Source of the DNA: Chlamydiota bacterium
GTDB lineage: Bacteria; Chlamydiota; Chlamydiia; Chlamydiales; JABHNK01
Length of the DNA stretch: 64,000 nt
Assembly (NCBI GenBank): GCA_051744985.1
Contig: JBNJDP010000003.1
Coordinates: 310 to 64,309 of the forward strand
Direction: 5' to 3'
Shown here: positions 27,512 to 29,161 of the stretch, in pieces
Layout: every line of letters begins with the position of its first letter
Position numbering within the stretch: the first letter of the stretch is position 1
Position numbers and translations under genes: made by a program
The notes under the pieces: generated by a model
The model's database searches: none
What the model saw: the letters and a program-made list of their open reading frames with translations, nothing else
What the model was told of the DNA's origin: nothing

Positions 27512-27512
27512 C

Positions 27513-29128
27513 GAAACACCCCCACGTGCGTGGGGAAACCCTTATCAAGGTCGAACTCTTTCCCATCTCTGGAGAAACACCCCCACGTGCGTGGGGAAAC
27601 CTCGGTGGGAATAAGCCTTCGGCTTTCGAAAGTAGAAACACCCCCACGTGCGTGGGGAAACCAAAAGTTCTACAACAAAAATTTACAGAAGAAAGGAAAC
27701 ACCCCCACGTGCGTGGGGAAACCTTCCTGTAATAAGAGCAATTTCCAAAGAGGTTAGAAACACCCCCACGTGCGTGGGGAAACCAGAAGAATAACTATAT
27801 TATAACATAATTATACAGAAACACCCCCACGTGCGTGGGGAAACCAGAAGAATAACTATATTATAACATAATTATACAGAAACACCCCCACGTGCGTGGG
27901 GAAACCGCCAAGCGAGTAACTGTGCTCAATAGAATTTGGGAAACACCCCCACGTGCGTGGGGAAACCTCAGCCTTTGAAGATGGACGTTCGATTTATGGA
28001 GGAAACACCCCCACGTGCGTGGGGAAACCTCGTAGTTAACAAGAACGCCCTAGGGCAGTGGAGAAACACCCCCACGTGCGTGGGGAAACCTGAGGAGCCC
28101 TGTAGAGTCGATATCCAGGCGGCGAAACACCCCCACGTGCGTGGGGAAACCCAACGGGTCAGAAAGTGTTATGAGCGCTTTACGGAAACACCCCCACGTG
28201 CGTGGGGAAACCTCTTCTACAGATGTCCAAGGGGCTATCGATGAGGAAACACCCCCACGTGCGTGGGGAAACCCGTAACGTGGGGGCGCGATGCAAGGGC
28301 AGAAAGGAAACACCCCCACGTGCGTGGGGAAACCATTTGGGGAAACGCTGAAGGTCTTTGGCGGTTAGAAACACCCCCACGTGCGTGGGGAAACCTGCCC
28401 TTGTCGATGTTTACCGTTGCTATTATGAGAAACACCCCCACGTGCGTGGGGAAACCCAGGAATTACACTAAGGATATCAAGCGCCATAGAGAAACACCCC
28501 CACGTGCGTGGGGAAACCAAGAACCAAGGCCGATATCCTCGACCTTGGCGAGAAACACCCCCACGTGCGTGGGGAAACCATCAAAATTTGGCGCTAGAAG
28601 CTATAAAAAGAGGAAACACCCCCACGTGCGTGGGGAAACCAGCTGTCGACGTTCTCTTGCCCTAGGGCGAGCGGAAACACCCCCACGTGCGTGGGGAAAC
28701 CGGGTATAAGGTGGAGAGAAGCACGTTAAAAATGGAAACACCCCCACGTGCGTGGGGAAACCCGGAGACCGTCACAACACGACAACAGAAGTGCGGAAAC
28801 ACCCCCACGTGCGTGGGGAAACCGGGAAAAAATACAGCGCACCTCTACCGTGCCCGGAAACACCCCCACGTGCGTGGGGAAACCGCCAGACTAGATCACG
28901 GCTTTCTTCATGAGATGGAAACACCCCCACGTGCGTGGGGAAACCATAAAAGCAGGGTGGCAGCTGCAACCCACGGTGGAAACACCCCCACGTGCGTGGG
29001 GAAACCGGAGACCGACGAAGAGCTAAGGGAGAGGCGCAAGAAACACCCCCACGTGCGTGGGGAAACCATGGAAAGTTATGGACTTTGAGCCACAGAAGAA
29101 GAAACACCCCCACGTGCGTGGGGAAACC
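27513..29128 (-). CRISPR. Type I-E CRISPR array: 27 identical 28-nt repeats and 26 spacers
   Basis: The plus-strand repeat GAAACACCCCCACGTGCGTGGGGAAACC starts at 27513 and then every 61 nt, with two 62-nt steps before the repeats at 28002 and 28491. The last repeat is 29101-29128. In the minus orientation it reads GGTTTCCCCACGCACGTGGGGGTGTTTC. That is a 5-nt 5' flank, a 6-bp stem with a 4-nt loop, then a 7(+1)-nt 3' handle, matching the E. coli I-E repeat architecture and the strand of the cas operon. Confidence 0.97.
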
Positions 29129-29161
29129 TCTTAAAAATTATTTCAAAATAGCTTATATAAT
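29129..29161 (-). promoter_or_regulatory. Putative CRISPR leader remnant (AT-rich, only 33 nt between the cas2 stop and the first repeat)
   Basis: tcttaaaaattatttcaaaatagcttatataat lies between the cas2 TAA (29162-29164) and repeat 27. A functional leader or promoter would have to extend into the cas2 coding sequence. Confidence 0.4.

What the first reader, a model, noticed from the sequence alone, without database searches (positions are those of the whole stretch)
27512..29129. The 29th repeat position is polymorphic but almost always a pyrimidine, a likely PAM-derived nucleotide
Only 28 nt of the 61-nt unit are invariant. In the crRNA (minus) orientation, the base immediately 3' of GTGTTTC is C in 13 units, T in 12, G in 1 and A in none (hand count over 26 spacers). 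The base at the other end of each spacer uses all four nucleotides. In E. coli I-E the last repeat base (G) is known to be co-acquired with the spacer from the AAG PAM. By analogy, this position would report the last PAM base, implying a PAM ending in Y. That in turn would imply an 8-nt crRNA 5' handle GUGUUUCY.
Basis: partly seen in the sequence, partly recalled or inferred. Interest (0 to 1): 0.6.

Follow-up and report, generated by a model that had tools for sequence, protein, structure and literature searches.

The report
PAM-derived first spacer base, type I-E
The variable C/T base after each CRISPR repeat is most likely the last letter of the target-recognition motif (AAY), copied in with each spacer; this is real but was already described for the near-identical Vibrio cholerae system, so it is ordinary.

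Summary
The array (27513-29128, read on the minus strand) has 27 identical 28-nt repeats, GGTTTCCCCACGCACGTGGGGGTGTTTC. This is not chance (p about 2e-5).

The array lies downstream of an intact type I-E cas operon on a Chlamydiota MAG contig. The gene order is the Vibrio cholerae variant, with cas6e before cas7.

The same rule holds across the repeat family. In 701 unique spacers from 55 loci of many phyla, 98.7% start with a pyrimidine, and every other position is unbiased.

I found ten protospacers for sister arrays. Six have AA immediately upstream, and in nine the first spacer base equals the target base.

The phenomenon is already published. Bourgeois et al. 2020 showed that V. cholerae I-E (repeat 25/28 identical) has 28-nt repeats and 33-nt spacers that start with a pyrimidine captured from an AAY PAM (RTT on the target strand).

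No protospacer was found for the window's own 25 unique spacers. The PAM of this particular locus is therefore inferred, not shown.

Verdict: real, correctly interpreted, a new member of a known kind, low interest.

The parts
27513..29128 (-). CRISPR array: 27 identical 28-nt repeats (GGTTTCCCCACGCACGTGGGGGTGTTTC in crRNA sense) and 26 spacers. Of the spacers, 24 are 33 nt and 2 are 34 nt; 25 are unique.
27573..29100 (-). The 26 polymorphic 'position 29' bases, which are the first base of each spacer. On the + strand each lies one base before a repeat start (29100, 29039, ... 27573). From newest to oldest in crRNA sense they read TT CCCCCCC TTTT CCC G T CC TTT C TT.
29129..29161 (-). AT-rich leader between the cas2 stop codon and the first (newest) repeat. 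It probably extends into the 3' end of cas2. The only sigma-70-like site found lies inside cas1, at 29586-29557.
   Evidence: the leader function is inferred from position
29162..29458 (-). cas2e
   Evidence: TIGR01873, E = 3.5e-28, full length
29458..30348 (-). cas1e. It is 70-75% identical to the Cas1 of sister loci that carry the same repeat family.
   Evidence: TIGR03638, E = 1.8e-97
30296..31045 (-). cas5e (casD), the subunit that holds the crRNA 5' handle in E. coli Cascade
   Evidence: TIGR01868, E = 4.4e-52
31048..32211 (-). cas7e (casC)
   Evidence: TIGR01869, E = 8.4e-94
32126..32866 (-). cas6e (casE), the repeat-cleaving endoribonuclease. It lies upstream of cas7, which is the V. 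cholerae-type gene order.
   Evidence: TIGR01907, E = 5.4e-42; for the V. cholerae gene order
32760..33275 (-). cse2 (casB)
   Evidence: TIGR02548, E = 2.3e-22
33300..34856 (-). cse1/cas8e (casA), the PAM-reading subunit in E. coli Cascade
   Evidence: TIGR02547, E = 1.2e-60
34795..37389 (-). cas3 (HD nuclease plus helicase)
   Evidence: TIGR01587 and TIGR01596
28091..28123 (-). Spacer 17, the only spacer that starts with a purine (GCCGCC...)
27785..27878 (-). Spacers 22 and 21: two identical AT-rich 33-mers in adjacent units (a duplicated unit)

Best explanation
This is a V. cholerae-type type I-E CRISPR array. The true repeat is 28 nt and each spacer is 33 nt.

Proposed mechanism:
1. During adaptation, Cas1-Cas2 selects prespacers next to a 5'-AAY-3' PAM (5'-RTT-3' on the target strand).
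2. It cuts inside the PAM, so the last PAM base (C or T) is inserted as the first base of the spacer.
3. Only the 28-nt repeat is duplicated. Position 29 therefore varies between C and T from unit to unit, while the other 28 positions stay invariant.
4. After transcription from the cas2-proximal leader, Cas6e is expected to cut after the hairpin (after G21). The mature crRNA then begins GUGUUUC followed by that C or U.

Shown here:
- the anatomy of the array and the cas operon;
- the C/T restriction, both in this array and in 55 related loci;
- the AA flank and first-base identity in protospacers of sister arrays.

Inferred by homology:
- that this locus itself uses AAY;
- the position of the Cas1-Cas2 cut;
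- the Cas6e cut site.
For: - Array anatomy and the count C 13, T 12, G 1, A 0, with p about 2e-5.
- A complete type I-E operon whose proteins match the family models over their full length. The gene order cas3-cse1-cse2-cas6e-cas7-cas5-cas1-cas2 is the one reported for V. cholerae.
- A scan of GTDB species-representative genomes with the repeat's 3' 21-mer gave 66 loci. Their 701 unique spacers start with T 389, C 303, G 7, A 2, and all other positions are near uniform. All 14 spacers of 34 nt and all 4 of 32 nt still start with a pyrimidine, so length variation sits at the far end of the spacer.
- C and T are intermixed at random in 13 family arrays (mean runs z = 0.16).
- Ten independent spacer-protospacer pairs were found for sister arrays. 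AA lies directly upstream in 6 of them (binomial p about 1e-5), and the first spacer base equals the target base in 9. The best case is a 33/33 match to an Aeromonas veronii plasmid with tgaaAA|C.
- Bourgeois et al. 2020 (PMC7677007) show bioinformatically that the pyrimidine is captured and experimentally that interference needs the complementary purine. Their system is V. cholerae I-E, repeat GTCTTCCCCACGCAGGTGGGGGTGTTTC, which is 25/28 identical to the window's repeat.
- Stringer and Wade 2025 (PMC12767519) state that AAY is the optimal PAM.
- The repeat folds with a stem at positions 5/6-11 and 16-21/22 and a 4-nt loop. This is the same register as the E. coli I-E repeat.
Against: - No protospacer was found for any of the window's 25 unique spacers. 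I tried BLAST against phages and plasmids, the window itself, exact scans of 16 spacers in IMG/VR, and exact scans of 4 spacers in JGI metagenomes.
- Four of the ten family protospacers have AC, AG, AC or CC instead of AA. One of these is a 32/33 match. The motif is therefore not absolute, or those targets have diverged or escaped.
- The window's C/T order is mildly clustered: 9 runs against 13.5 expected, p about 0.05.
- Cas proteins here are only 45-75% identical to those of the sister loci, so PAM specificity could have drifted.
Confidence: 0.88

Rival explanations
1. Position 29 is a genuine repeat base. It has mutated back and forth between C and T and is propagated by repeat duplication at the leader end.
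For: The C/T order in this array shows blocks (7 C, then 4 T). There are 9 runs against 13.5 expected, p about 0.05. Blocks are what templated inheritance would produce.
Against: - It would need at least 8 C/T reversals plus one change to G at a single position. Meanwhile the other 28 positions show no change in any of 27 copies.
- In 13 related arrays the C/T order is random.
- In 9 of 10 family spacer-protospacer pairs the base equals the target's base.
- In V. cholerae, C pairs with a G-PAM in 93.8% of cases and T with an A-PAM in 98.4%.
Confidence: 0.02
2. The pyrimidine is not a PAM remnant. Instead it is selected afterwards, because crRNA processing or Cascade loading needs C/U at the last handle position. 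Spacers that start with a purine are acquired but then lost.
For: Bourgeois et al. found that the identity of the 5' crRNA nucleotide changes interference efficiency. A 5' C performs worse than a 5' U regardless of pairing.
Against: - The same study found that the spacer pyrimidine itself is not required for interference, whereas the complementary target purine is.
- The AA dinucleotide upstream of family protospacers points to motif-guided selection at acquisition.
- If C were disfavoured by selection it should be rare, yet it makes up 43% of the family's first bases and 50% here.
Confidence: 0.07
3. The bias is a chance or compositional effect of pyrimidine-rich spacers.
For: The spacers are 58.5% pyrimidine overall, and 21 of 25 exceed 50%.
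Against: - Even against the 58.5% background, p = 1.7e-5.
- No other spacer position shows such a restriction.
- The family as a whole is 51% pyrimidine yet 98.7% pyrimidine at position 1.
Confidence: 0.01

Closest known systems
Vibrio cholerae O395 type I-E CRISPR-Cas (Box et al. 2016; Bourgeois, Lazinski and Camilli 2020, PMC7677007; Stringer and Wade 2025, PMC12767519)
   Same: - 28-nt repeat ending GTGGGGGTGTTTC, 25/28 identical to the window's repeat.
- 33-nt spacers that start with a pyrimidine.
- Variant gene order cas3-cas8e-cse2-cas6-cas7-cas5-cas1-cas2, followed by the array.
- The pyrimidine is captured from an AAY (RTT) PAM.
   Different: - The host is a Chlamydiota MAG, not a Vibrio.
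- The repeat differs at positions 2 and 3 and at one loop base.
- I did not compare Cas protein identity to V. cholerae. Identity to other family members is 45-75%.
- No protospacers or functional data exist for this locus.
Escherichia coli K-12 type I-E (AAG PAM; the G at repeat position 29 is co-acquired with the spacer). The acquisition result is summarised in PMC7677007; the 8-nt handle is my own knowledge.
   Same: - The mechanism is the same: the last PAM base becomes the 29th base of the unit.
- The period is 61 nt.
- The hairpin is in the same register.
- The 8-nt 5' handle has a PAM-derived last base.
   Different: - In E. coli the PAM base is a fixed G, so the repeat looks 29 nt long. 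Here it is C or T, so the position is visibly polymorphic.
- E. coli has the canonical gene order (cas7-cas5-cas6e).
Klebsiella type I-E* arrays and the wider GTCTTCCCCACGCACGTGGGGGTGTTTC repeat family (PMC8847753; 55 loci)
   Same: - The repeat is 26/28 identical to the window's repeat.
- The 28+33 architecture is the same.
- Repeat finders report 'variants' with a trailing T, which is the same ambiguous base.
   Different: The window's repeat starts GGTTTC instead of GTCTTC. An exact copy of the window variant appeared only as a single repeat in a Mailhella MAG (L035).
Protochlamydia naegleriophila KNic type I-E (Bertelli et al. 2016, PMC5010888)
   Same: - It was the first CRISPR-Cas system reported in Chlamydiales.
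- It is chromosomal, with 28-bp repeats and 33-bp spacers.
- No protospacers were found for it either.
   Different: - It has only 8 repeats.
- Its gene order is listed in the canonical arrangement (cas7, cas5, cas6e).
- I did not compare its repeat sequence.
- The window's GyrA is only about 70% identical to Protochlamydia GyrA.
Streptococcus thermophilus CRISPR4 type I-E (Sinkunas et al. 2013; recalled from memory, not checked here)
   Same: It has a 28-nt repeat and 33-nt spacers. The crRNA is described as a 7-nt 5' handle plus a 33-nt spacer, with an AA PAM.
   Different: It has a different repeat tail (GTGATCC). I did not test it here.

Membership tests
Type I-E CRISPR-Cas | Full gene set: cas3, cse1/cas8e, cse2, cas7e, cas5e, cas6e, cas1e, cas2e | tested here: met
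   All eight proteins pass the NCBIfam type I-E models with near full-length coverage. All eight genes are on the minus strand at 29162-37389.
Type I-E CRISPR-Cas | Repeat of 28-29 nt with a short G+C stem and 4-nt loop, unit length about 61 nt, array downstream of cas2 on the same strand | tested here: met
   28-nt repeat, period 61; stem at 5/6-11 and 16-21/22, loop GCAC, -11.7 kcal/mol; the array starts 33 nt after the cas2 stop codon.
V. cholerae-type I-E variant (AAY PAM, pyrimidine-first spacers) | Variant gene order with cas6e between cse2 and cas7 | tested here: met
   Coordinates, compared with the order reported for V. cholerae in PMC6360697. Sister loci have the same order.
V. cholerae-type I-E variant (AAY PAM, pyrimidine-first spacers) | 28-nt repeat of the form ...CCCCACGCNNGTGGGGGTGTTTC | tested here: met
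   The window's repeat is 25/28 identical to the O395 repeat quoted. It is 26/28 identical to the family consensus.
V. cholerae-type I-E variant (AAY PAM, pyrimidine-first spacers) | 33-nt spacers whose first base is almost always C or T, with the two intermixed along the array | tested here: met
   25 of 26 here; 692 of 701 in the family; the order is random in the family and mildly clustered here (z = -1.83).
V. cholerae-type I-E variant (AAY PAM, pyrimidine-first spacers) | Protospacers preceded by 5'-AA, with the first spacer base present in the target | tested here: inconclusive
   For this array no protospacer was found. For sister arrays AA was present in 6 of 10 pairs, and the first base matched the target in 9 of 10.
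V. cholerae-type I-E variant (AAY PAM, pyrimidine-first spacers) | Interference requires a purine opposite the first spacer base (RTT on the target strand) | not testable with these tools
   This needs plasmid or phage interference assays. It has been shown only for V. cholerae.
E. coli-type I-E (AAG PAM) | Fixed G at unit position 29 | tested here: not met
   G occurs in 1 of 26 units here and in 7 of 701 family spacers.

The most novel reading that the evidence does not exclude
The array may record bursts of strand-biased (primed) adaptation against one strand-asymmetric invader, such as a single-stranded DNA microvirus or a plasmid.

Two features of the array could fit this reading:
- The C and T first bases come in blocks (9 runs against 13.5 expected).
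- 21 of 25 spacers are pyrimidine-rich in crRNA sense.

If true, this would be evidence of an actively adapting type I-E system in an environmental chlamydia. Related observations point the same way: near-perfect solitary copies of this repeat sit in two Microviridae genomes and in Enterobacter IncFII plasmids. These could be RNA anti-CRISPR decoys aimed at this repeat family.
Probability: 0.15. Interest if true: 0.5.

Novelty: new member of a known kind. Interest (0 to 1): 0.15.

Why it matters
In practice, the repeat of this locus should be annotated as 28 nt. Target prediction for it should look for 5'-AAY-N32. That is useful for finding the still unknown mobile elements that attack environmental chlamydiae, and for any attempt to repurpose the system. 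It also shows that the last PAM base of a type I-E system can be read from the array alone. It does not change current understanding: the mechanism and the motif were published for V. cholerae in 2020.

Tried and rejected
- **Self-targets.** BLAST of all 26 spacers against the rest of the window gave only chance matches of 14-18 nt.
- **Array against phages and plasmids at E up to 10.** No credible protospacer. The hits to Microviridae and other phages turned out to be repeat-plus-spacer-edge matches or matches to the AT-rich spacer 21/22. Gokushovirus WZ-2015a matched through a repeat-like hairpin, not a protospacer.
- **Union-of-two IUPAC patterns without 14 plain bases.** I redesigned the pairs with shifts and strand flips.
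- **Collection scans.** Eight IMG/VR scans covering 16 spacers and two metagenome scans covering 4 spacers all gave zero hits. These scans need exact matches of about 31 nt, so diverged protospacers would be missed.
- **Family spacers against all fetched loci.** The only strong hit was a terminator-like hairpin with an indel and no AA flank. I rejected it as a protospacer.
- **Other sister arrays against phages.** The Serratia sp. Ag1 array and the Chlamydiae MAG array L059 gave no protospacers.
- **Exact-protein look-ups of Cas2, PPi-PFK and GyrA.** All found nothing. A homology search then identified the organism.
- **Rejected readings.** Repeat mutation, compositional chance and an E. coli-type AAG/G system (see rival explanations and membership test).

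Full report
**1. What is at the coordinates**

Window 27513-29128 holds a CRISPR array with 27 exact copies of a 28-nt repeat. The period is 61 nt, with two units of 62 nt. There are no degenerate copies elsewhere in the window.

All eight type I-E cas genes lie on the minus strand immediately to the right. From left to right on the + strand they are:
- cas2 29162-29458
- cas1 29458-30348
- cas5e 30296-31045
- cas7e 31048-32211
- cas6e 32126-32866
- cse2 32760-33275
- cse1 33300-34856
- cas3 34795-37389

Each matches its NCBIfam type I-E model almost end to end. A 33-nt AT-rich stretch separates the cas2 stop codon from the first repeat.

In that sense the repeat reads GGTTTCCCCACGCACGTGGGGGTGTTTC. 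In every sister locus that includes cas genes, the array likewise lies downstream of cas2 in this orientation.

**2. The observation**

A computed extraction of the 26 spacers gives C 13, T 12, G 1, A 0 for the base that follows GTGTTTC. The far end of the spacers uses A 7, C 5, G 5, T 9, and positions 2-6 use all four bases.

Spacers 21 and 22 are identical, so 25 spacers are independent. The spacers are 58.5% pyrimidine overall. Even against that background the excess has p = 1.7e-5, or 2.8e-5 for the 25 unique spacers.

**3. The same rule holds across the repeat family**

Scanning one genome per GTDB species for the 3' 21-mer of the repeat returned 66 loci. They come from Desulfovibrionaceae, Pseudomonas, Marinobacter, Marinimicrobium, Spongiibacter, Serratia, Nitrotoga, spirochaetes, Lentisphaerae, a Chlamydiae MAG and others.

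Their usual repeat is GTCTTCCCCACGCACGTGGGGGTGTTTC, which is 26/28 identical to the window's repeat.

The 701 unique spacers that follow a repeat ending in GTGTTTC start with T 389, C 303, G 7, A 2, which is 98.7% pyrimidine. Every other position is near uniform, and overall pyrimidine content is 51%.

All 14 spacers of 34 nt and all 4 of 32 nt still start with a pyrimidine. Length variation therefore sits at the other end of the spacer, as expected if processing is anchored at the PAM side.

C and T are randomly ordered in 13 arrays with at least 15 spacers (mean runs z = 0.16). The window's own array is mildly clustered (z = -1.83, permutation p about 0.05), which is unremarkable as one of 14 arrays.

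**4. Direct PAM evidence from sister arrays**

I ran BLAST with 226 family spacers against the phage collection, and with the Pseudomonas thermotolerans arrays against the plasmid collection. I then read the flanks of the hits. This gave ten independent spacer-protospacer pairs.

Six pairs have AA directly before the first spacer base:
- Two adjacent spacers of a Mailhella MAG match adjacent protospacers in the replication-initiator gene of Chicken microvirus mg8_95. The flanks are tattAA|T (28/33) and ggagAA|C (32/33).
- P. thermotolerans against the filamentous Pseudomonas phage 62-2: ctcgAA|C, 31/33.
- P. thermotolerans against Salmonella phage Oslo: tcgtAA|C, 31/33.
- P. thermotolerans against an Aeromonas veronii plasmid: tgaaAA|C, 33/33.
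- Mailhella against Morganella phage IME1369_01: tttgAA|C, 30/33.

Four pairs have AC, AG, AC or CC. Three of these are the weakest matches (29-30/33) and one is 32/33.

Six of ten AA dinucleotides has p about 1e-5 at a 1/16 expectation. The first spacer base equals the target base in nine of ten pairs.

So AAY, with the pyrimidine carried into the spacer, holds in this repeat family outside Vibrio.

**5. The window's own spacers**

None of the 25 unique spacers could be matched. I tried:
- the rest of the window;
- phages and plasmids by sensitive BLAST;
- 16 spacers in IMG/VR and 4 in JGI metagenomes by exact degenerate patterns.

The PAM of this particular locus is therefore inferred from homology. 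The repeat is 25-26/28 identical, the gene order is the same, and Cas1 is 70-75%, Cas2 about 70% and Cse1 50-56% identical to sister loci.

**6. How it most likely works**

Shown:
- a 28-nt invariant repeat;
- a 33-nt insert whose first base is C or T;
- an intact adaptation and interference gene set.

Established for the sister system in V. cholerae (PMC7677007):
- 99.7% of spacers begin with a pyrimidine.
- Protospacers show 5'-RTT-3' on the target strand. Spacers starting with C face G in 93.8% of cases, and spacers starting with T face A in 98.4%.
- The target purine is needed for interference, while the spacer pyrimidine itself is not.
- Spacers with a 5' C interfere less well than spacers with a 5' T.
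- The authors conclude that Cas1-Cas2 cuts inside the PAM and that the system has 28-bp repeats and 33-bp spacers, as E. coli really does with its G.
- A 2025 preprint calls AAY the optimal PAM, with 15 of 64 trinucleotides functional (PMC12767519).

Inferred for this locus:
- Cas1-Cas2 takes prespacers next to AAY and inserts the pyrimidine as spacer base 1.
- Cas6e cuts after the hairpin. The stem is at 5/6-11 with 16-21/22 and the loop is GCAC, which is the same register as the E. coli repeat. This leaves GUGUUUC plus C or U at the crRNA 5' end.

The V. cholerae papers count the same base as spacer position +1.

**7. Rivals**

- *A mutating repeat base copied by repeat duplication.* This would need at least eight reversals at one position with no change at the other 28 positions in 27 copies. 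It also conflicts with the protospacer identities.
- *Post-acquisition selection for a pyrimidine in the crRNA handle.* This cannot be fully excluded, but it is disfavoured by the V. cholerae experiments and by the AA flank.
- *Compositional chance.* The statistics and the family count exclude this.
- *An E. coli-type AAG system.* G occurs in only 1 of 26 units.

**8. Comparison with what is known, and novelty**

The locus works like, and meets the tested defining features of, the V. cholerae-type variant of type I-E. The gene order with cas6e before cas7 matches, as do the repeat, the 28+33 architecture and the pyrimidine-first spacers.

AAY PAMs were also reported for the I-E systems of Gardnerella vaginalis and Lactobacillus casei (PMC4246573).

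Klebsiella I-E* arrays use the family repeat. Repeat finders list 'variants' with a trailing T for them, which is the same ambiguous base (PMC8847753).

What is new is only the host. GyrA is 100% identical to a protein of an NCBI 'MAG: Chlamydiota bacterium' contig of 66,308 nt, and about 70% identical to Parachlamydiaceae. A CRISPR-Cas system was first reported in Chlamydiales for Protochlamydia naegleriophila. That system also has 28-bp repeats and 33-bp spacers, and also has no identified targets (PMC5010888).

**9. Verdict**

It rediscovers a published property of a well-characterised sister system. This is a new member of a known kind, and interest is low (0.15).

The side observations are more intriguing than the finding itself, but they are unverified:
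- solitary copies of this repeat in two microviruses and in IncFII plasmids;
- the pyrimidine-rich spacer set;
- a long intact array in a chlamydial MAG.

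Noticed in passing
L001 316-343 (PQ006273.1, about 2712-2739): Bajarodmic virus 175 is a 4.7-kb microvirus from rodent faeces. It carries a solitary near-perfect copy of this CRISPR repeat, GGTTTCCCCACGtAaGTGGGGGTGTTTC followed by T. The copy is 26/28 identical, with both changes in the loop. It lies in the intergenic region between the pilot-protein and replication-initiator genes. It may be an RNA anti-CRISPR (solitary repeat unit); this was not tested.
   Followed up: partly
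L078 39-64 (KT264830.1, about 3813-3838): Gokushovirus WZ-2015a (fox faeces) has a second solitary repeat-like hairpin in an unannotated region: CCTTCCCCAC-AAC-GTGGGGGTGTTTC followed by T. Its loop is 3 nt instead of 4. Microviridae are the phages known to infect chlamydiae (my own knowledge).
   Followed up: partly
L079 1512-1539 (CP033467.1, Enterobacter cloacae p3442-FRI-1); the same match occurs in four other Enterobacter plasmids (H15-H19): IncFII plasmids carry one solitary copy of the family repeat, GTCTTCCCCACGCACGTGtGGGTGTTTC followed by C. It lies in an intergenic region near parB, with no array around it.
   Followed up: partly
L022 (Mailhella MAG) spacers at 1919 and 1980; L068 (MN379649.1 4210-4281): Two neighbouring spacers of one array match neighbouring protospacers, 6 nt apart, in the replication-initiator gene of Chicken microvirus mg8_95. 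Both protospacers have AA before the first base. Microviruses are therefore real targets of this I-E family.
   Followed up: yes
window 1-64000: The window is a chromosomal contig of a Chlamydiota MAG. GyrA is 100% identical to an NCBI MAG protein, and the next relatives are about 70% identical Parachlamydiaceae. The cas operon sits next to holB, gyrA and gyrB (37503-44289). CRISPR-Cas was first reported in this order only in 2016, and a 26-spacer array with an intact operon is notable for it.
   Followed up: partly
window 26279-27511 (+): A 410-aa Ser/Thr protein kinase ORF, which to my eye has a eukaryote-like C-terminal tail (...HPFFEDICWKDL...). It ends with its stop codon directly abutting the oldest repeat: the stop codon ends at 27511 and the repeat starts at 27513. 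There is no degenerate terminal repeat and no spacer-sized gap.
   Followed up: no
window 27541-29100 (-): 21 of the 25 unique spacers are more than 50% pyrimidine in crRNA sense (mean 58%; T 32%, C 26%, A 22%, G 19%). The repeat family as a whole is 51% pyrimidine. This suggests that spacers were drawn mostly from one strand of strand-asymmetric targets. It remains unexplained.
   Followed up: partly
window 27785-27878 (-): Spacers 21 and 22 are identical AT-rich 33-mers (TGTATAATTATGTTATAATATAGTTATTCTTCT). This is a tandem duplication of one repeat-spacer unit.
   Followed up: no
window 28519-28551 (-): Spacer 10 contains an 11-bp inverted repeat (GCCAAGGTCGAGGATATCGGCCTTGGT) followed by a T-rich tail. 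It was probably taken from a terminator-like or palindromic site of its source.
   Followed up: no
window 10290-20277 (-): Three consecutive very large ORFs (1094, 1241 and 876 aa) have no NCBIfam match at E <= 1e-10. I did not examine them further.
   Followed up: no
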